The notes: a model not told the origin generated them from the sequence alone. Positions 57,982 through 64,000 are shown, numbered from the stretch's first letter. The stretch is DNA of 64,000 nucleotides from an uncultured Neomegalonema sp. (GCA_937995735.1 CALKIZ010000012.1:51404-115403); one strand, 5' to 3'. Program-made: numbers and translations.

Positions 57982-58008
57982 CCCATGCGTCCTCGCGTGG
58001 GAGTTTTT
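57982..58008 (+). terminator. orphan intrinsic-terminator-like hairpin on the + strand
   Basis: CCCATGCG-tcct-CGCGTGGG (8 bp including one G-U pair) is followed by agTTTTT. No + strand gene lies upstream. Confidence 0.35.
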
Positions 58009-58028
58009 GAGAGTGAGGTTTTCGGGTT

Positions 58029-58778
58029 TCAAGCCTTATCCGGCGGGCGCGGTTCCTGCGGGCACGGTTCCTGCCGGACAAGGCAATGACAATCCCATAG
58101 AATTTCATCGACCTTGTGGAGATGCTTTCGCCGGTATCCCGGCGGCAAGCCCATGCGCAGCGGCGGAACGCTTTTCGGCCCCGGCGCAGCGGCCTTGCGT
58201 TTCGCCACTTCGCGGACATAGCGCTGGGCTTGCTTGGGCATGTCTTCAAGCGCCAGTTTCAGCGCCAAGAGACGACGGCAAAGCGCCTTTGCCGACACCT
58301 CATCCTCCGGCGTCAAAACTGCTTTGGGTTCCGACCACAGGATAAAAGCAGGCGCGCCGTCAAATGTCCCGATCCGCACTTGAATGTGAGGATCGGTAGA
58401 ACCACCCGCCTTGGGCTTCCGGCGCGGCTTTCGGCGGTTCGGGTGCAGTTCAGGGAAGTATTTGCGCGGATCAATCAAACAAAATTGCGGCGCACGCGAC
58501 CCGCGCTTTTCGCCTGTGCCTTTATTCTTGGCGCGCTTCCGCTCGGGCGGAGCAACATACTCCGGCACATCCATATCCCGCGCCACGACAGCAATAATCC
58601 GCCGCGCCGCCGATTCCGCAGGGCGCAAAATCAGCAAGACCGCATTGCGCACATGCCGTGGCAGCTTGTCGATAATCGCTGCGTCGTGACCCATTCCCGC
58701 CGACACAAACAACCCCGCCACAATGCGCAACAGCGCAAGGCGGTAGTTTTCAGTCATACGGTCAAAGCTCCAGGTCAT
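58029..58778 (-). CDS. hypothetical protein with a basic Arg/Lys/Pro-rich centre
   Basis: 249 aa with plausible composition. The antisense 231-aa ORF is Arg-rich junk. I recognise no family. Confidence 0.5.
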   Translation of the reverse strand: MTWSFDRMTENYRLALLRIVAGLFVSAGMGHDAAIIDKLPRHVRNAVLLILRPAESAARRIIAVVARDMDVPEYVAPPERKRAKNKGTGEKRGSRAPQFCLIDPRKYFPELHPNRRKPRRKPKAGGSTDPHIQVRIGTFDGAPAFILWSEPKAVLTPEDEVSAKALCRRLLALKLALEDMPKQAQRYVREVAKRKAAAPGPKSVPPLRMGLPPGYRRKHLHKVDEILWDCHCLVRQEPCPQEPRPPDKA

Positions 58779-58975
58779 GGTGTCTTTCTGTTAAATAGAA
58801 AAAGAACATAATAAAAACATTTGATATTTTCAAGAGGTAAAATTTCTTTCCGCAAATCCGGCTTCGGAACAACATAAGCACGAACACAAAGGTATTACGC
58901 GACGGTGGTGCAAAATCTCAACTCAGACTATCAAACCGGTCGGACCTTAAGCAATAAAGGGGATTTTAAGCATAT

Positions 58976-60169
58976 GTGCCTAGATCGATTTATGACGTGT
59001 TTTGTCTTTATCGAAAGAAGGGGCAATCACATCCTTCATCATCTGAGGTTTATGTGGCCTATTCCGACACGACAACGGCAAAGCATCCTTCAGTTCTTGC
59101 GGCAGCTTTTCTTCATCACTTATATGAACAGTTTCGCCAAAATTTAGTCCTGACTTGCCTTTGTGTTTTGTTGATCGCGGGCACATATCTGGCTGCGGTC
59201 ATCCTGCAGCTCGGATTTGAACATAGTGTAACCGGCTATATACAGCGGGCGCTCTTTTACATTACGCCAATCGTATTTTCGATCTTTGTCCTCCGGCGTA
59301 TTATTTACGTCGGCTTCGTTCAAAAACCTCCGGTTATTATGACCGTTGTATTGCGCGATATCGGCACGGCAATGACCCAGCCCGAACGCTATGCGCGAAT
59401 GATATGGTTGCTACTCGTTCCAACAATAGGGTTTATTGCCTTCGTAAACCTTAAGGTCTATATTCCTGAAATCATTCCTTTTTATGCAGATGACTTTCTT
59501 ATCAATCTCGAGCGGACGCTTCATTTCGGCACACTGCCCCAAGACTGGCTCGCATTTATTCTGGACATTCCCAGTTTAGTAAGCGCGATCGATTTTTCTT
59601 ATAAGCTCTGGTATATTATCGCTTTTGTGATGTGGGGATGGGCAGCTTTGGGTGCTGAGGATGCAGGATGGCGCCGTCAGTATATTCTCAGCCTGATGCT
59701 CTGTTGGAGTATCTGCGGGATGTTGCTCGCAACATTAATGGCATCCGTCGGGCCGGTATTTTATGATGCGCTGGTTTCCCCCGGAGGTCCCTACGTGGCT
59801 CATATGGCAAAGCTCGGCGAGATCAATGCAACCTATCCATTGATGGCCGTCGAAATTCAAACCAAAATGACCGAGCTATATCTGAACGAACCACCTTCAG
59901 GACGTATTGGTATTTCCGCAATGCCGAGCCTGCACAACACTCTGGCGGTCTTATTCGCAATCGCAGGATATCGCATACACCGCCTTATCGGACATGCCCT
60001 TGCAGTATACGCGGCATTGATCTTTATCGGCTCCATTGTTCTCGGATGGCATTATGCGTTAGACGGTTATGCCGGTCTGATCCTGGCGATTGGCATGTGG
60101 AAGCTGGCCGGTTGGTTGCTAAAAGTGCAGGACAGGGTTCTTAAAATAGACCCGGCTTCGACACTTTAG
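58976..60169 (+). CDS. polytopic membrane protein with a PAP2_C / sphingomyelin-synthase-like motif (paralogue 2)
   Basis: 397 aa. SAMPSLHNTLA...GWHYALDGYAG is alignable along the C-terminal ~250 aa with 18858-20021. The start codon (GTG at 58976) is uncertain. Confidence 0.6.
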   Translation: MPRSIYDVFCLYRKKGQSHPSSSEVYVAYSDTTTAKHPSVLAAAFLHHLYEQFRQNLVLTCLCVLLIAGTYLAAVILQLGFEHSVTGYIQRALFYITPIVFSIFVLRRIIYVGFVQKPPVIMTVVLRDIGTAMTQPERYARMIWLLLVPTIGFIAFVNLKVYIPEIIPFYADDFLINLERTLHFGTLPQDWLAFILDIPSLVSAIDFSYKLWYIIAFVMWGWAALGAEDAGWRRQYILSLMLCWSICGMLLATLMASVGPVFYDALVSPGGPYVAHMAKLGEINATYPLMAVEIQTKMTELYLNEPPSGRIGISAMPSLHNTLAVLFAIAGYRIHRLIGHALAVYAALIFIGSIVLGWHYALDGYAGLILAIGMWKLAGWLLKVQDRVLKIDPASTL

Positions 60170-60239
60170 TAAAAACAGCGGGCGAAGGTGGTGACGCTGC
60201 GATGGCGCGCCACGTAAACCTGCGCTATAGAGCGCCTTT

Positions 60240-61205
60240 ATGAACAACGCGCCCGATTCTCCCTTCGCACACCGGCATTTGCTGGGCATCGAAGAACTTT
60301 CGCCCCAAGATATCACTGCTATTTTGGACCGTGCCGACGATTACGTCGATATGAACCGCGAGGCCCGCAAGAAACGCGACACGCTCAAGGGCCTGACGCA
60401 GATCAACCTGTTTTTCGAGCCATCCACCCGCACCCAAGCCAGTTTTGAACTTGCCGGAAAGCGCCTCGGGGCCGATGTGATGAACATGTCGGTAAAATCT
60501 TCGAGCGTCACCAAGGGCGAGACGCTGATTGACACCGCGATGACCCTCAACGCCATGCACCCCGATCTGTTGATCGTGCGCCATGGCGAAAGCGGCGCGG
60601 TTAATCTGCTCGCGCAAAAGGTCAACTGCTCGGTCTTGAATGCCGGAGACGGACGCCGCGAGCACCCGACGCAAGCCCTGCTCGATGCCCTGACCATCCG
60701 CCGCCGCAAAGGCCGCCTGCACAGGCTCAATGTCGCGATTTGCGGAGACATTCTGCATTCCCGCGTCGCGCGCTCAAACATTCATCTGCTCAACAAAATG
60801 GAAAGCCGCGTCCGCGTCATCGCCCCGCCAACCCTCCTCCCCGCCGGGATCGAGCAATTCGGCGCGGAAGTCTTCCATGACATGCGGAAGGGACTAGAGG
60901 GCTGTGACGTCGTGATGATGCTACGCCTGCAACAAGAGCGCATGGCGGGCAGTTTCATCCCCTCCACCCGCGAATACTTCCACCGCTACGGGCTGGATGA
61001 AGACAAAATGAAAGGCGCAAAAGAAGACGCCATCATCATGCACCCCGGCCCCATGAACCGGGGGGTAGAAATCGACAGCGACCTTGCAGACGACCTCACC
61101 CGCTCTGTGATCGGCGAACAAGTAGAAATGGGCGTCGCCGTACGCATGGCCGTGCTGGAACTCCTCGCCCGCAACGTAACCAACGAGATCGCGGGGGTAG
61201 CTTGA
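60240..61205 (+). CDS. pyrB: aspartate carbamoyltransferase catalytic subunit
   Basis: STRTQASFE, the HP.Q context ([10 protein letters not shown]) and HPGP motifs are present. 321 aa. Confidence 0.95.
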
Positions 61206-61376
61206 TCAGATCGTCGATAACAGTTATGCTATATAATAGCATTGAAGGAGCGTACCATGTCTGACACAGCAGGCCACGCCACCGTAACACTCGGTGCGAC
61301 CAAAGAAATTGCGAAGCGGCTCGTAACTGAAGGCAAATATGAAAGTGTATCCGAAGCCTGCCGCGCCGGATTGAGA
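61097..61376 (+). repeat. left arm of the 754-nt tandem duplication, copy A (pyrB 3' tail, promoter, parD 5' half)
   Basis: It matches 61851-62130 at an offset of exactly 754 nt, with about ten mismatches counted by eye. The 51-nt spacer 61206-61256 is identical to 61960-62010. Confidence 0.9.
61202..61242 (+). promoter_or_regulatory. parDE-1 promoter candidate with a 17-bp perfect palindrome (candidate ParD operator)
   Basis: TTGATC (61202-61207), a 17-nt spacer and TATGCT (61225-61230). The palindrome ATGCTAT-ata-ATAGCAT at 61226-61242 overlaps the -10 hexamer and an internal TATAAT. Confidence 0.5.
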
Positions 61377-61505
61377 CGCATTGAGACTGAAGAAAAGCTA
61401 ATCGACCGTCTCGTTGCTTTGGGTAAAGAAGGTATGGCGGGCGGTATCGCCAAGGATTTCGACATAGACGCATTTATTGAAGAGACGGACACTTTTGAAC
61501 TGTGA
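61257..61505 (+). CDS. parD: type II antitoxin ParD (ribbon-helix-helix), copy 1
   Basis: The ATG at 61257 lies 6 nt after GAAGGAG. The 82-aa product has ATVTLGATKEIAKRLVTEGKYESVSEACRAGLRR...DFDIDAFIEE, matching the ParD-antitoxin pattern (..ITLG....F......G.Y.S.SEV.R..LR.LE). A GTGA overlap joins it to parE. Confidence 0.85.
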   Translation: MSDTAGHATVTLGATKEIAKRLVTEGKYESVSEACRAGLRRIETEEKLIDRLVALGKEGMAGGIAKDFDIDAFIEETDTFEL

Positions 61506-61810
61506 AGTTGGAATGGTCTGAAACCGCAAGAATGGATCTGGAAGAAATCAGGCGATACTCGACAATCCGATGGGGCCGCGACATTGCTAAACAGTATCTC
61601 AAAGACTTACGGGCAGCAGCGAAAGCATTAGCGGAAGACCCACGTCGAGCAAGACCCTTGCGTGCGCCTTGGGGATACACGACCGCACGATCTCATGTTT
61701 TGATTTGTTTTGAAGATCAACGAGATAATGTTCTAACAATTGCGCGTGTTCTGCATGGTGCAAGAGACATTGAGCGACATTTACCACGCGATATGAGAAA
61801 CTTGAAATGA
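61502..61810 (+). CDS. parE: type II toxin ParE (RelE/ParE superfamily), copy 1
   Basis: 102 aa. W...A..DL.EI..YS..RWG...A..Y...L and ARVLHGARD match the ParE pattern. The stop overlaps the ATG of the junction ORF. Confidence 0.85.
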   Translation: MKLEWSETARMDLEEIRRYSTIRWGRDIAKQYLKDLRAAAKALAEDPRRARPLRAPWGYTTARSHVLICFEDQRDNVLTIARVLHGARDIERHLPRDMRNLK

Positions 61811-61959
61811 CCCGTCTCGCCCTCACCAATGCCCATTGCGATAACACCGTCACCCGCTCGGTGATCGGCGGACAAGTAGAAATGGGCGTCGCCGTACGCA
61901 TGGCCGTGCTGGAACTCCTCGCCCGCAACGTAACCAACGAAATCGCGGGGGTGGCTTGA
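61807..61959 (+). pseudogene. duplication-junction ORF: pyrC' 5' fragment (10 codons) fused in frame to a pyrB 3' fragment (about 35 codons)
   Basis: The translation is [50 protein letters not shown]. The first 30 nt match 62561-62590 and the remainder matches 61097-61205. It has 50 codons plus a stop. Confidence 0.85.
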
Positions 61960-62130
61960 TCAGATCGTCGATAACAGTTATGCTATATAATAGCATTGAA
62001 GGAGCGTACCATGTCTGACAACGCAGGCCACGCAACCGTAACACTCGGTGCGACCAAAGAAATTGCGAAGCGGCTCGTAACTGAAGGCAAGTACGAAAGT
62101 GTATCCGAAGCCTGCCGAGCCGGATTACGC
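61851..62130 (+). repeat. left arm of the 754-nt tandem duplication, copy B
   Basis: See 61097-61376. It is the same sequence at an offset of 754 nt. Confidence 0.9.
61956..61996 (+). promoter_or_regulatory. parDE-2 promoter candidate with the identical 17-bp palindrome
   Basis: An identical copy of 61202-61242, with the palindrome at 61980-61996. Confidence 0.5.
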
Positions 62131-62259
62131 AGGCTGGAAATTGAAGCCAAAATGTCTGACAGGTTGTTCGAGATGGCCGAACAGGGATGGAAGTCCGGTA
62201 TTCTGGAAGATTTTGACATTGATGCCTTTGTTGAAGAAACAGCGGCGGTCAAAATTTGA
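62011..62259 (+). CDS. parD: type II antitoxin ParD, copy 2 (divergent C-terminal half)
   Basis: The RBS and ATG are in the same position as copy 1. The first 41 aa differ from copy 1 at one residue (T4N). The remaining 41 aa are only about half identical. Confidence 0.85.
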   Translation: MSDNAGHATVTLGATKEIAKRLVTEGKYESVSEACRAGLRRLEIEAKMSDRLFEMAEQGWKSGILEDFDIDAFVEETAAVKI

Positions 62260-62564
62260 AGCCGTTCTGGACGGCTGAGGCAATAAGTGACCTCACCGAC
62301 ATTCGGCGTTTTTCGATCCAACGGTGGGGCCGCGACGTTGCCATGCGCTATATGGCCGACCTACGGGACTCTGCGCGGCTTCTGGCGGATGATCCGAGGC
62401 GCGCCCGATATTTTCGTGGCCCCTACTCTTTATTCAGAGTGCGTTCACACGTACTGGTGATCCGTTGGGACGACGACAATGCCCGTCTCGCGGTTGTTCG
62501 CGTATTGCACAGTTCAATGGATATGACCCGCCACCTACCCAACACCCCGAAAGACTCAGAATGA
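62256..62564 (+). CDS. parE: type II toxin ParE, copy 2 (divergent)
   Basis: 102 aa with a TTG start overlapping the parD2 stop. It is collinear with copy 1 without gaps, but only about half the residues are identical. The stop overlaps the pyrC' ATG. Confidence 0.8.
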   Translation: MKPFWTAEAISDLTDIRRFSIQRWGRDVAMRYMADLRDSARLLADDPRRARYFRGPYSLFRVRSHVLVIRWDDDNARLAVVRVLHSSMDMTRHLPNTPKDSE

Positions 62565-63844
62565 CCCGCCTTGCCCTCACCAATGCTCATCTCATCGACC
62601 CGGCCACGGGGTTAGACGCGCCCGGCGGGGTGTTGGTTCAGAACGGCATGATTGCCGATGCCGGAGAGCGGTTGTTTAATGACGGCCTGCCGGAAGGCGC
62701 AGAAATTGTCGATTGCCAAGGCAAAATCCTCGCCCCCGGTCTTGTCGATTTCAACGTCTCCATCGGCGAACCCGGCGCGCGCCACAAAGAGAGCTTCCGC
62801 TCCGGCGGCGAGGCGGCGGCCAAGGGTGGCGTCACCACAATCATCACACAGCCGAACACCGACCCGCCACTGGATGAGCCTGCAATCCTCGAATTCGTCC
62901 TCCGCCGCGCCCAAGCCGCTTCAGCGGTTCGCGTTCTGCCCACCGCGACGCTGACCAAAGCCGCCAAGGGCAAGGAGATGACCGAGTACCGCTTTCTCCT
63001 CGATGCGGGTGCAGTGGCGCTGACCGATGGTGAGAACGCCATTGCCGACCCGGTGGTGTTCCGCCGTTGTCTTGAATACGCGGCCTCCGTCGATGCGCTG
63101 GTCTGCCATCATCCGCAAGAGCCGCATTTCTCGGCGCTGGGCTGTGCGACCGAGGGACTCTTTGCCTCTCTGCGCGGCCTGCCGGAAATCCCCGCCGAAG
63201 CGGAAGCCATTATGCTGACCCGCGACATCCGCATCGCGGCCCTTACCGGCGTCCGCTATCACGCGGCGCAAGTCTCAACAGCAGAAAGCCTCAGCGTGAT
63301 CCGCCGCGCAAAAGAAGCCGGAGCCAATGTCACATGCTCCATCGCTGTGCCACATTTCTCGCTGAACGAGTTCGACATCGCGGACTTCCGCACCTTCCTG
63401 AAAGTCTGCCCGCCTCTGCGCAGCGAAGACGACCGCGCGGCCATGGAAGAAGCCCTAGCCGACGGCCTTATCGACGTCATCACCTCGGCCCATTGTCCAC
63501 AGGATGAGGAATCGAAACGCCTCCCCTTCGCGCAAGCCGCCGCAGGCGGTGTCGGGCTGGAAACCCTCCTCCCTGTTACGCTCGACCTGCATCACCGGGC
63601 TGGCATCAAACTCACCACCTTGTTCGAGCGTCTGTCCCTGACCCCCGCCCGCATTGTGGGGCTGAACGCAGGGCATCTCGGCAAAGGCGCATTGGCGGAC
63701 CTGATTTTATTCGACCCCCACGCACCGTGGATCGTGGACCGCAAAGACCTGATTTCAAAATCCAAGAACTCCCCCTTCCATGAGCGCCGCGTTCAAGGCA
63801 AAGTGCTGGGAACATGGGTCGAAGGAAAGCGGGTATGGGGATGA
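62561..63844 (+). CDS. pyrC: dihydroorotase-like protein with degenerate active-site motifs (PyrC'-type)
   Basis: The ATG at 62561 gives MTRLALTNAHLIDPATG. It has a DHOase fold, but the D-x-H-x-H metal motif reads LVDFNVSIGEPG and the ..DH.P. motif reads ITSAHCPQ. The track ORF start at 62465 lies inside parE2. Confidence 0.8.
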   Translation: MTRLALTNAHLIDPATGLDAPGGVLVQNGMIADAGERLFNDGLPEGAEIVDCQGKILAPGLVDFNVSIGEPGARHKESFRSGGEAAAKGGVTTIITQPNTDPPLDEPAILEFVLRRAQAASAVRVLPTATLTKAAKGKEMTEYRFLLDAGAVALTDGENAIADPVVFRRCLEYAASVDALVCHHPQEPHFSALGCATEGLFASLRGLPEIPAEAEAIMLTRDIRIAALTGVRYHAAQVSTAESLSVIRRAKEAGANVTCSIAVPHFSLNEFDIADFRTFLKVCPPLRSEDDRAAMEEALADGLIDVITSAHCPQDEESKRLPFAQAAAGGVGLETLLPVTLDLHHRAGIKLTTLFERLSLTPARIVGLNAGHLGKGALADLILFDPHAPWIVDRKDLISKSKNSPFHERRVQGKVLGTWVEGKRVWG

Positions 63845-63868
63845 TCAATACCTACGCAGGATGGCGTT

Positions 63869-63926
63869 CCCTCCCCTCTCGGGGGAGGGTCAGGGTGGGG
63901 GGCGGTTGCCTCGCGAGGCAATCGCC
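63869..63926 (+). other. two adjacent GC-rich hairpins between pyrC' and the next gene
   Basis: CCCTCCCC-tctcg-GGGGAGGG lies at 63869-63889. GGCGgTTGCCTCG/CGAGGCAAtCGCC lies at 63901-63926, ends directly at an ATG and contains the only GAGG upstream of that ATG. Confidence 0.6.
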
Positions 63927-64000
63927 ATGAGAGGTTATCTCCCCGATCTAATCGCCTTCACCCAAGGCTGGCCATATCTGCTGGCCGCTCTCGCTTTCGG
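63927..64000 (+). CDS. start of a membrane protein, possibly PlsY (glycerol-3-phosphate acyltransferase), truncated by the window end
   Basis: The fragment is MRGYLPDLIAFTQGWPYLLAALAFG.... I recall pyrB-pyrC-plsY synteny in Alphaproteobacteria. The fragment is too short to confirm this. Confidence 0.3.
   Translation, partial: MRGYLPDLIAFTQGWPYLLAALAF

What the first reader, a model, noticed from the sequence alone, without database searches (positions are those of the whole stretch)
61097..62590. Exact 754-nt tandem duplication places two parDE toxin-antitoxin modules inside the pyrB-pyrC' junction
Positions 61097-61376 recur at 61851-62130, an offset of 754 nt. I count about ten mismatches, and the 51-nt spacer between the pyrB stop and the parD start is identical. 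The first 30 nt of the dihydroorotase-like gene (62561-62590, ATGACCCGCCTTGCCCTCACCAATGCTCAT) recur at 61807-61836 (ATGACCCGTCTCGCCCTCACCAATGCCCAT) at the same offset. The repeated unit is therefore [pyrB 3' tail - promoter - parD - parE - pyrC' 5' head]. In both copies the parE stop overlaps the (pseudo)pyrC' ATG. The TA module is thus wired into a biosynthetic operon rather than sitting on a mobile element, and no integrase or IS is nearby. Two origins fit. One is unequal crossing-over. The other is Campbell-type integration of a circularised fragment carrying an allelic locus, in which case the pyrC'-head/pyrB-tail joint is the circle junction.
Basis: seen in the sequence. Interest (0 to 1): 0.8.

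Follow-up and report, generated by a model that had tools for sequence, protein, structure and literature searches.

The report
Stacked parDE alleles in pyrB–pyrC′ slot
Two different versions of a ParD–ParE toxin–antitoxin gene pair sit head to tail between two pyrimidine-synthesis genes; they share one control region and antitoxin front half but have very different toxin-facing parts, and they look like the product of recombination at a gene-swapping hot spot rather than a simple duplication.

Summary
The repeat is real. It is not an exact duplication, because the unit is a mosaic. The pyrB tail, the 51-nt leader and parD codons 1-38 are 96% identical between copies (10 mismatches in 277 nt). 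parD codons 39-82 are 55% identical and parE 52% identical in DNA (46% in protein). The 30-nt pyrC′ head is 27/30.

The two intact, selectively constrained ParD/ParE modules (T1, T2) therefore share one promoter, one palindromic operator and one DNA-binding half of ParD. Their toxin-binding half and toxin are deeply diverged.

Relatives show that the pyrB–pyrC′ junction is a variable cargo slot. It holds T2 alone (L090), T1 next to the real pyrC′ (L081), unrelated genes X or Y (L099, L102, L101), a parDE scar (L101), VapBC (L036) or nothing (L100 and 130 of 151 surveyed loci).

Best reading: two alleles of one slot were stacked by one-sided recombination. That event left a 50-codon pyrC′-head::pyrB-tail relic ORF as the joint. 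Simple unequal crossing-over alone does not explain the mosaic. An assembly artefact is unlikely but not excluded without spanning reads.

This is a new variant of a known kind, of moderate interest.

The parts
60240..61205 (+). pyrB, the aspartate carbamoyltransferase catalytic chain (321 aa). Its last 110 nt form the left end of repeat arm A.
   Evidence: Pfam OTCace_N and OTCace. It is identical to database protein P0168, which lies on a 118,456-nt contig.
61096..61372 (+). Repeat arm A: pyrB tail, 51-nt leader and parD1 codons 1-38.
   Evidence: 267/277 identical to 61850-62126. The longest exact runs are 69, 67 and 56 nt.
61202..61250 (+). Control region of module 1. Proposed -35 TTGATC at 61202-61207, overlapping the pyrB stop codon. 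Proposed -10 TATGCT at 61225-61230. Palindrome ATGCTAT-ATA-ATAGCAT at 61226-61242. RBS AAGGAG at 61245-61250.
   Evidence: The palindrome TATGCTA-N5-TAGCAT, with its spacing to the RBS, is conserved upstream of the ParD homologues in L090 and L081 and in the unrelated-context locus L082. L088 carries a diverged version, TATGCTG-N5-CAGCA. The consensus promoter scan did not reach its 9/12 threshold here, so the promoter hexamers are inferred.
61257..61505 (+). parD1, the type-1 (T1) antitoxin, 82 aa.
   Evidence: PF03693, E=2.6e-11. Best solved relative is Caulobacter ParD1, 3KXE. 88% identical to the ParD of L081.
61502..61810 (+). parE1, the type-1 toxin, 102 aa. Its GTG start overlaps the parD1 stop (GTGA). 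Its stop overlaps the ATG of the relic ORF.
   Evidence: PF05016, E=9e-15. PDB relatives 8C24 and 3KXE, both ParE1. 75% identical to P0001 of L081.
61807..61959 (+). Relic fusion ORF of 50 codons, which is the duplication joint. It consists of a pyrC′ head copy (61807-61836), a 13-nt filler TGCGATAACACCG (61837-61849) and a pyrB tail copy (61850-61959).
   Evidence: Head 27/30 and tail 106/110 identical to the real genes; filler 5/13. The tail copy carries E->G at a residue that is Glu in all 22 PyrB homologues read. No Pfam hit.
61850..62126 (+). Repeat arm B: relic pyrB tail, 51-nt leader and parD2 codons 1-38.
   Evidence: As for arm A.
61956..62004 (+). Control region of module 2, base-for-base identical to that of module 1. 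Palindrome at 61980-61996.
   Evidence: Spacer 51/51 identical. The palindrome occurs only twice in the 64-kb window, at 61226 and 61980.
62011..62259 (+). parD2, the type-2 (T2) antitoxin, 82 aa.
   Evidence: PF03693, E=6e-11. 93% identical to the ParD of L090. It differs from ParD1 at 1 of the first 41 residues and at 21 of the last 41.
62256..62564 (+). parE2, the type-2 toxin, 102 aa. Its TTG start overlaps the parD2 stop (TTGA). Its stop overlaps the pyrC′ ATG (ATGA).
   Evidence: PF05016, E=1.3e-13. Identical to P0033, 81% to P0034 of L090, and 46% to ParE1.
62561..63844 (+). pyrC′, a dihydroorotase-like protein (427 aa) that lacks the metal ligands.
   Evidence: Aligned end to end with Aquifex DHOase 3D6N (E=2e-86). 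The HxH motif reads N-V-S and the ligand Asp reads Ala.

Best explanation
WHAT IT IS (shown). Two complete type II ParD–ParE toxin–antitoxin operons lie head to tail, co-directional, between pyrB and the gene for its inactive dihydoorotase-like partner, pyrC′. Each has its own leader with a conserved palindrome placed just upstream of the RBS. In each, parD and parE overlap by 4 nt, and the parE stop overlaps an ATG. For module 2 that ATG is the real pyrC′ start. For module 1 it starts a 50-codon relic made of 30 nt of pyrC′ head, 13 nt of filler and 110 nt of pyrB tail.

The copies are a mosaic. The pyrB tail, the leader and ParD residues 1-41 are essentially the same. ParD residues 42-82 and ParE are about 50% diverged.

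HOW IT WORKS (inferred from family knowledge). The N-terminal half of ParD is the ribbon-helix-helix DNA-binding and dimerisation half. The C-terminal half holds all the toxin contacts. Both ParDs should therefore bind both identical operators, and possibly form mixed dimers, so the two modules would be co-repressed. Each ParD is expected to neutralise mainly its own ParE. Read-through from pyrB plus the two parD promoters would feed pyrC′, and the ATGA overlap would couple pyrC′ translation to parE2.

HOW IT AROSE (inferred from comparisons). T1 and T2 are old alternative alleles of the cargo carried in a hypervariable pyrB–pyrC′ slot. A fragment carrying one allele, probably T1 with its pyrB tail and the first 30 nt of pyrC′, came from a strain a few percent diverged. 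It recombined homologously on the pyrB side and joined illegitimately, with filler, 110 nt before the resident pyrB stop. This could have happened by homology-facilitated illegitimate recombination or by a Campbell-type crossover of a circularised fragment. The result stacked the incoming module upstream of the resident T2 instead of replacing it. Keeping the resident module may be favoured because deleting a toxin–antitoxin pair is self-punishing. That last point is speculation.
For: Mosaic structure:
- The identity profile shows sharp edges at about 61096, 61372 and 61806.
- Synonymous divergence between copies A and B is 0.11 in the pyrB tail and 0.18 in the parD N-terminal part. That is at or below the window-versus-L102 level for pyrB and pyrC′ (0.26 and 0.22). 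In the parD C-terminal part and parE it is saturated, with pS 0.81-0.93.

Both modules are functional-looking:
- The ORFs are intact and have the same lengths as in relatives.
- For the T2 genes dN/dS against the L090 orthologues is 0.02 (parD C-terminal half) and 0.19 (parE). The parD N-terminal part gives 0.04-0.10. For the T1 parD C-terminal half and parE against L081, synonymous sites are saturated, so no ratio could be computed.

Allelic status:
- L090 has the real pyrB (69 codons visible), then T2, then the real pyrC′.
- L081 has T1 followed by at least 290 nt of the real pyrC′.
- The parD N-terminal part tracks the host rather than the type. Window copy A (T1) is 87.7% identical to L090 (T2), whereas window copy B (T2) is 84.2% identical to L090.

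Slot variability:
- L102 is 94.6% identical in both flanks and carries an unrelated AT-rich 178-aa gene.
- L099 carries gene X.
- L101 carries Y plus a parD-T2/parE scar that begins with 13 nt of pyrC′ head.
- L100 is empty.
- L036 carries VapBC.
- 130 of 151 surveyed loci have a gap of 100 nt or less.

[quoted passage not shown] There is also homology to 3KXE.

Operator conservation.

Direction clues, which are weak: the relic tail B differs from the L102 pyrB tail at 2/105 sites and tail A at 4/105. The real pyrC′ head is 29/30 identical to L102 and the head copy 27/30.

Precedent for one-sided recombination that stacks toxin/immunity cassettes: PMC5361080.

Reality of the joint: the joint contains unique sequence. 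An independent Logan assembly of run ERR9287617 gives a contig 100% identical to 62061-64000. It starts exactly 30 nt before the first copy-specific base (62091), as expected at a k=31 branch when both arms are present in the reads.
Against: - No relative with the same T1–joint–T2 arrangement was found, and none with a T1-only locus at about 95% identity, so the donor is hypothetical.
- The clues to which copy is the incomer rest on 2-3 nucleotides.
- Gene conversion between old tandem copies could also produce 96%-identical flanks.
- L081 shows only 30 nt of pyrB tail, so a further module upstream of its T1 cannot be excluded.
- Cross-repression, insulation and translational coupling are all untested.
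- The consensus promoter scan did not call the proposed promoter.
- The source contig is probably a metagenome assembly, and I could not map reads across 61000-62700.
Confidence: 0.58

Rival explanations
1. This is an old tandem duplication formed in place by unequal crossing-over of one parDE module. The toxin and the antitoxin C-terminal half then diverged under selection for insulation. Gene conversion kept the pyrB tail, the leader and the parD N-terminal half homogeneous. Relatives with one module lost the other.
For: - The period is exactly 754 nt and both modules have identical gene lengths.
- New ParDE paralogues commonly arise by operon duplication and then become insulated (PMC7669267).
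- Recombination between the 277-nt arms would delete T1 and give exactly the L090 structure.
- Conversion tracts would naturally stop where homology ends.
Against: - It needs reciprocal losses. L081 keeps T1 next to the real pyrC′, which requires a deletion through a 30-nt repeat. L081 also retains a remnant of gene X upstream of T1 that the window lacks.
- The closest relative, L102, has neither module.
- No second tandem locus was found.
- The head copy and the tail copy differ from the resident sequences about as much as a conspecific strain would.
Confidence: 0.22
2. This is a recent duplication in place of a single module, giving two identical copies. The core of one copy was later replaced by the other allele, through ordinary homologous recombination with foreign DNA using the conserved flanks.
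For: It yields the same end product. Allelic exchange of the core between conserved flanks is implied by the parD N-terminal half tracking the host rather than the type.
Against: It needs two rare events where one suffices. For copy 1 the right-hand homology would be only the 30-nt head. It is not distinguishable from the main explanation with the data in hand.
Confidence: 0.14
3. This is an assembly artefact. Two co-occurring strains, each with one allele, were wrongly joined into a tandem.
For: - Related single-module and other-cargo loci occur in metagenomes that appear to belong to the same sample series, judging by their neighbouring ERZ accession numbers (L090 and L101 from ERZ6863811, L102 from ERZ6864144).
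- The arms share exact runs of 56-69 nt.
Against: - The joint (parE1 end, head copy with 3 private variants, 13-nt unique filler, tail copy with private variants) cannot be built from two single-module genomes. Its k-mers must exist in the reads.
- Copy-specific variants occur every 69 nt or less.
- A mis-join inside an arm could at most swap which core follows the joint. It could not remove the second module.
Confidence: 0.05

Closest known systems
Chromosomal ParD–ParE type II toxin–antitoxin modules, such as Caulobacter ParD1/ParE1 (PDB 3KXE) and the Mesorhizobium opportunistum ParD2/E2 and ParD3/E3 paralogues
   Same: The Pfam families match. The antitoxin-then-toxin order with a 4-nt overlap matches. 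There is a palindrome upstream. The N-terminal DNA-binding half and C-terminal toxin-binding half of ParD match. Multiple paralogues occur in one genome.
   Different: The two modules are adjacent and share a base-identical leader and a near-identical ParD N-terminal half, while the toxin-facing parts are about 50% diverged. They sit inside an essential biosynthetic operon with start/stop overlaps to its genes. The subfamily is rare: 73 cluster representatives at E<=1e-3 among 1.84 billion, and no ParE match in 72,556 plasmids.
C-terminal displacement and orphan arrays at Rhs, CDI and T6SS effector–immunity loci (PMC5361080)
   Same: There is a constant 5′ part and a variable 3′ part with a cognate partner gene. 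Alleles are exchanged horizontally. The older cassette is pushed downstream rather than lost. The proposed mechanism is one homologous anchor plus an illegitimate end.
   Different: Here both stacked cassettes are complete and keep their own promoter, and the proteins belong to a toxin–antitoxin pair rather than a secreted toxin with its immunity protein. A truncated 'orphan' is seen only in the relative L101.
Tandem duplication by unequal crossing-over
   Same: Head-to-tail units with a novel joint (a downstream point fused to an upstream point) and an exact period.
   Different: The copies are not uniformly similar. The joint carries 13 nt of filler rather than a clean (micro)homology crossover.
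Class A aspartate carbamoyltransferase with an inactive dihydroorotase-like subunit (the Pseudomonas aeruginosa ATCase–pDHO complex, PMC7053772)
   Same: PyrC′ lacks the metal ligands. pyrB and pyrC′ are normally adjacent or overlapping, in 130 of 151 loci.
   Different: In this lineage the two genes are separated by cargo, and the ATGA overlap has been transferred to the last cargo gene.

Membership tests
ParD/ParE type II toxin–antitoxin system | The antitoxin matches the ParD family and the toxin matches the ParE family above the curated thresholds. | tested here: met
   PF03693 scores 44.2 and 43.0 bits (cut-off 21). PF05016 scores 55.4 and 51.7 bits (cut-off 23). The PDB ParD1/ParE1 relatives agree.
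ParD/ParE type II toxin–antitoxin system | A bicistronic operon with the antitoxin first and the genes overlapping or abutting. | tested here: met
   GTGA overlap at 61502-61505 and TTGA overlap at 62256-62259.
ParD/ParE type II toxin–antitoxin system | An autoregulatory operator bound by the antitoxin. | tested here: inconclusive
   A palindrome in the same position is conserved upstream of the ParD homologues in L090, L081 and L082, with a diverged version in L088. Binding cannot be tested with these tools.
ParD/ParE type II toxin–antitoxin system | The toxin is toxic and is neutralised by its cognate antitoxin. | not testable with these tools
   The only evidence is indirect. The ORFs are intact. 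dN/dS against the L090 orthologues is 0.02-0.19 for the T2 genes. For the T1 core against L081, synonymous sites are saturated and no ratio could be computed.
Simple tandem duplication (unequal crossing-over of one module) | Head-to-tail repeat units with a novel joint. | tested here: met
   The offset is 754 nt throughout. The joint lies at 61836/61850 with 13 nt of filler.
Simple tandem duplication (unequal crossing-over of one module) | The copies diverge uniformly along the unit. | tested here: not met
   96% identity in 61096-61372 against 52% in 61373-61806. dS is 0.11-0.18 in the flanks and saturated in the core.
Mobile element (IS, integrative island, integron cassette) | An integrase, transposase or recombinase gene nearby. 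| tested here: not met
   The ORFs at 44-58 kb are housekeeping families; two of the ten scanned have no Pfam hit. The 249-aa ORF at 58029-58778 also has no Pfam hit. The downstream genes are plsY, DUF938 and dprA. No tRNA gene lies in the window.
Mobile element (IS, integrative island, integron cassette) | Terminal inverted repeats or att-type repeats bounding the insert. | tested here: not met
   No inverted-repeat pair brackets a module. The only direct repeats are the gene-derived arms.
Allelic cargo of a recombination hot spot flanked by core genes | Different, unrelated cargo lies between the same conserved flanks in close relatives. | tested here: met
   T2 in L090, T1 in L081, X in L099, Y in L102, Y plus a scar in L101, and an empty slot in L100.
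Displacement-type cassette array (Rhs, CDI, T6SS-like) | A constant 5′ segment shared by the alleles, with a variable 3′ segment plus a partner gene. | tested here: met
   The parD N-terminal part is 75-95% identical across the types and tracks the host. The parD C-terminal part and parE are 52-61% identical between the types.
Displacement-type cassette array (Rhs, CDI, T6SS-like) | The displaced downstream copies are 5′-truncated orphans. | tested here: not met
   In the window both modules are complete. A truncated remnant exists only in L101.
ATCase with an inactive DHOase-like subunit (PyrC′) | The DHOase homologue lacks its metal-binding residues. | tested here: met
   Against 3D6N, D-I-H-V-H aligns with D-F-N-V-S, and T-D-H-A-P aligns with S-A-H-C-P.

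The most novel reading that the evidence does not exclude
The pyrB–pyrC′ junction in this alphaproteobacterial lineage may work as a cassette bay for toxin–antitoxin alleles built on a 'constant front, variable back' plan. The constant front is one promoter/operator and the ParD DNA-binding half. The variable back is the interchangeable toxin-binding half plus toxin. Because a resident module cannot be deleted without releasing its toxin, incoming alleles would be fixed only when they stack rather than replace. That would make this tandem a natural pair of co-regulated but mutually insulated modules, and a toxin–antitoxin counterpart of Rhs/CDI/T6SS displacement arrays.
Probability: 0.22. Interest if true: 0.65.

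Novelty: new variant of a known kind. Interest (0 to 1): 0.45.

Why it matters
If the structure is real, it offers three things.

1. It is a ready-made natural experiment on toxin–antitoxin specificity. The two ParD proteins have the same DNA-binding half and the same operator but different toxin-binding halves. Transcriptional cross-talk and protein-level insulation can therefore be separated cleanly.

2. It is an example of an accessory-gene hot spot inside an operon whose two products form one enzyme complex. Every cargo gene inherits the start/stop overlap with pyrC′, so the cost of interrupting translational coupling can be measured.

3. It provides sequence-level footprints of how cargo is stacked or swapped without any mobility gene: the joint with its filler, the scar in L101 and the X remnant in L081.

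None of this overturns current views of toxin–antitoxin biology.

Tried and rejected
- Exact-protein look-ups of ParD1 and ParD2 found nothing. ParE1 is absent from the protein collection, with a best hit of 75%, although ParE2 and PyrB of the same contig are present.
- The species-representative genome scan gave no relative closer than 78% in PyrB.
- The first metagenome scan, with a ParD alignment, matched patterns but confirmed no relative. The second scan, with a PyrB C-terminal query, gave only distant loci, at most 86%.
- I asked whether the 13-nt filler and the 'CDNTV' residues come from a diverged pyrB allele. None of the 22 PyrB homologues read has this motif, so I rejected that idea.
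- I considered that the pyrC′ head is a fixed attachment site used twice, in the window and in L101. I rejected it. The L101 head copy is exact for only 13 nt and then runs into parD, so the two joints differ.
- A plasmid origin has no support: there is no tblastn match for either ParE in PLSDB.
- No Rfam family matches in 58000-64000.
- The divergence profile along pyrB against L102 shows no clear import boundary.
- The representative-library search with ParD1 found a small family with many truncated entries, and nothing that bears on the slot.

Full report

Yes, with one correction. The repeat finder reports a direct repeat, 61096-61392 vs 61850-62146, with a start-to-start spacing of 754 nt and 94% identity. 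A second arm, 61795-61836 vs 62549-62590, has the same spacing.

An ungapped comparison at offset 754 shows a sharply bounded mosaic:
- pyrB tail, 106/110
- 51-nt leader, 51/51
- parD codons 1-40, 111/120
- rest of parD, 72/129
- parE, 161/309
- pyrC′ head, 27/30
- the next 13 nt, 5/13

In 61096-61372 there are 10 mismatches in 277 nt. The central 434 nt are 52% identical and the whole unit is 70% identical. Random 277-nt pairs in this window average 25% identity, with a maximum of 34%.

So the period is exact and there are no indels, but the copies are not duplicates of each other. The divergent core was missed.

**2. What the parts are**

- Pfam confirms two ParD antitoxins (PF03693) and two ParE toxins (PF05016), PyrB, and an amidohydrolase.
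- The closest solved structures are Caulobacter ParD1/ParE1 (3KXE) and other ParDE complexes.
- The downstream gene aligns end to end with Aquifex dihydroorotase, but the HxH metal ligands read N-V-S and the ligand Asp is Ala. It is therefore the inactive PyrC′ type, which in Pseudomonas is a required structural partner of the PyrB enzyme (PMC7053772, abstract).
- parD and parE overlap by 4 nt in both modules (GTGA, TTGA). Each parE stop overlaps an ATG (ATGA).
- After parE1 that ATG opens a 50-codon ORF, 61807-61959. It is an in-frame fusion of 10 pyrC′ codons, 13 nt of filler and the last 110 nt (36 codons and the stop) of pyrB.
- This tail copy carries E->G at a position that is Glu in all 22 PyrB homologues I read. 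None of those homologues has the filler-encoded 'CDNTV'. The ORF is a relic joint, not a gene with a family.

**3. Control region**

The 51-nt leader holds the palindrome ATGCTAT-ATA-ATAGCAT, at 61226-61242 and again at 61980-61996. These are the only two occurrences in the window. The palindrome ends a few bases upstream of the AAGGAG ribosome-binding site.

The same palindrome (TATGCTA-N5-TAGCAT) with the same spacing precedes the ParD homologues in L090, L081 and L082. L088 carries a diverged version, TATGCTG-N5-CAGCA. L082 and L088 lie in unrelated genomic contexts.

A conserved TTGAxC-17 nt-TATGCT arrangement can be read as a promoter whose -10 lies in the left arm of the palindrome and whose -35 overlaps the pyrB stop codon. 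The consensus scan did not reach its threshold there, so the promoter is an inference and the operator is a conserved-sequence inference.

**4. The breakpoint coincides with a domain boundary**

ParD1 and ParD2 differ at 1 of the first 41 residues and at 21 of the last 41. ParE1 and ParE2 are 46% identical.

The two modules thus share their DNA-facing half and differ in their toxin-facing half. Shared repression with separate neutralisation follows from family knowledge. It is not shown here.

**5. Both modules look alive**

- The gene lengths equal those of relatives.
- Against the L090 orthologues, dN/dS is 0.02 for the T2 parD C-terminal half and 0.19 for T2 parE. The parD N-terminal part gives 0.04-0.10. 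For the T1 parD C-terminal half and parE against L081, synonymous sites are saturated and no ratio could be computed.
- Synonymous divergence between the two copies is 0.11 in the pyrB tail and 0.18 in the parD N-terminal part. For comparison, the window and its closest relative L102 differ by 0.26 (pyrB) and 0.22 (pyrC′).
- In the core the synonymous sites are saturated, with pS 0.81-0.93.

**6. Relatives**

The pyrB–pyrC′ junction is normally tight. Of 151 alphaproteobacterial loci that have both genes, 130 have 100 nt or less between them. Near relatives of the window are different.

| Locus | Similarity to the window | Content of the slot |
|---|---|---|
| L090 | 83-86% nt | Real pyrB, leader, T2 parDE, real pyrC′ |
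| L081 | about 76% nt | T1 parDE followed by real pyrC′; first ~28 codons of cargo gene X survive between the pyrB stop and the parD promoter |
| L099 | PyrB 96% aa | Gene X intact, a 177-aa membrane protein, with overlaps at both ends |
| L102 | 94.6% nt in both flanks | Unrelated AT-rich 178-aa gene Y, again with overlaps at both ends |
| L101 | PyrB 92.5% aa | Y, then a 53-codon scar (13 nt of pyrC′ head, the C-terminal half of a T2-like parD, the last codons of parE), then pyrC′ |
| L100 | PyrB 93% aa | Empty; pyrB and pyrC′ overlap |
| L091-L098 | PyrB 96% aa | pyrB is not followed by pyrC′ at all |
| L036 | distant, Stellaceae | VapBC pair |
| Rhodobacterales loci | PyrB 74-76% aa | 0.6-1.7 kb of other genes |

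Segment by segment, the parD N-terminal part and the leader diverge like the host genes, not like the allele type. For example, window copy A (T1) is 87.7% identical to L090 (T2). Each core type is conserved within its type (T2 80-83% to L090, T1 68-74% to L081) and about 52-56% identical between types.

T1 and T2 therefore behave as old alternative alleles sitting between recombining, conserved flanks.

**7. How the tandem arose**

A plain unequal crossover of one module predicts uniform similarity. That was tested and is not met.

One event explains everything. DNA from a strain a few percent diverged, carrying the other allele, paired homologously on the pyrB side. Its far end lay 30 nt into pyrC′ and joined illegitimately, with 13 nt of filler, 110 nt before the resident pyrB stop. 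A Campbell-type crossover of a circularised fragment gives the same product.

Weak clues suggest that T2 and the real pyrC′ are resident, and that T1, tail A and the head copy came in:
- The relic tail B differs from the L102 pyrB tail at 2/105 sites, tail A at 4/105.
- The real head is 29/30 identical to L102, the head copy 27/30.

The L101 scar looks like a second, independent one-sided event in the same slot.

I add one speculation. Replacing a resident toxin–antitoxin pair outright would release its toxin, so stacking events may be the ones that survive.

**8. Rival explanations**

- An old duplication in place, with divergence of the interface and gene conversion of the 5′ arm, remains possible (about 0.2). 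It needs reciprocal losses and does not account for the X remnant in L081 or for the absence of both modules from L102.
- A recent duplication followed by replacement of one core needs two events.
- An assembly chimera is unlikely. The joint contains private variants and a unique filler that two single-module genomes cannot supply. An independent k=31 assembly of run ERR9287617 yields a contig identical to 62061-64000 that begins exactly 30 nt before the first copy-specific base, which is the signature of a repeat branch in the reads. I could not map reads, so this stays a caveat.

**9. Mobility**

No integrase, transposase or tRNA gene is nearby. No inverted repeats bracket the modules. Neither ParE has a plasmid homologue in PLSDB.

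The modules are about 50% G+C against 58-65% in pyrB and pyrC′, which is consistent with acquired cargo. The ParD subfamily is small: 73 cluster representatives at E<=1e-3 among 1.84 billion proteins.

**10. Verdict**

This is a real feature, correctly located but mis-described as exact. It consists of two stacked alleles of a ParDE toxin–antitoxin module in a variable slot inside the pyrB–pyrC′ operon.

It is a new variant of known kinds: chromosomal ParDE paralogues, core-gene-flanked hot spots and displacement-type cassette stacking. I found no paper linking parDE with pyrB.

Interest is moderate. It makes a neat natural system for separating operator sharing from toxin specificity, and for studying cargo exchange without mobility genes. 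It is not a new mechanism.

Noticed in passing
window 58850-60170: An AT-rich stretch (42-48% G+C against 56-65% around it) carries a PAP2-family gene (58976-60169) just upstream of pyrB. The stretch is absent from L091, L099 and the closest relative L102, so the upstream side of pyrB is also a variable spot.
   Followed up: partly
L036 6021-6682: A Stellaceae genome carries a VapB (PF07704) and VapC (PIN) toxin–antitoxin pair in the same pyrB–pyrC′ slot. The VapC stop overlaps the pyrC′ start. This is an independent toxin–antitoxin insertion at the same junction.
   Followed up: partly
L101 2256-2417: A 53-codon scar ORF consists of 13 nt of pyrC′ head fused to the C-terminal half of a type-2-like parD and the last codons of parE. 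It lies downstream of cargo gene Y. This is evidence of toxin loss and of a second stacking event in the slot.
   Followed up: yes
L081 30-150: The first ~28 codons of cargo gene X (intact in L099) survive between the pyrB stop and the parD promoter. In that lineage the parDE module therefore replaced most of X.
   Followed up: partly
window 61837-61849 and 61215-61222: The 13-nt filler at the joint (TGCGATAACACCG) shares the 8-mer CGATAACA with the parD leader. The chance expectation is about 0.07. It may be a template-switch trace or a coincidence.
   Followed up: no
L091-L098, L104, L105: In some close relatives (PyrB 96% identical for L091-L098) pyrB is not followed by pyrC′ at all. In L091 a convergent RNase J-like gene starts 49 nt after the pyrB stop. 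The junction is also a synteny breakpoint.
   Followed up: no
L099 5966-6499; L002, L004, L007, L008, L108: Cargo gene X is a membrane protein of about 170-195 aa with a conserved N-terminal W-x-G-R-P motif and a sub-threshold bPH_2 hit. It recurs in the pyrB–pyrC′ slot across Rhodobacterales and the window's relatives. Its function is unknown.
   Followed up: partly
P0042, P0043 (PyrB homologues of 437 and 443 aa): Two database PyrB entries contain an internal repeat of about 115 residues. They are probably assembly or gene-calling artefacts on contigs of about 2 kb.
   Followed up: no
P0179, P0187, P0190, P0205, P0235, P0241: Several database entries in the type-1-like ParD subfamily are N-terminally truncated or frameshifted fragments of 48-60 aa. 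This suggests frequent decay of this antitoxin family.
   Followed up: no
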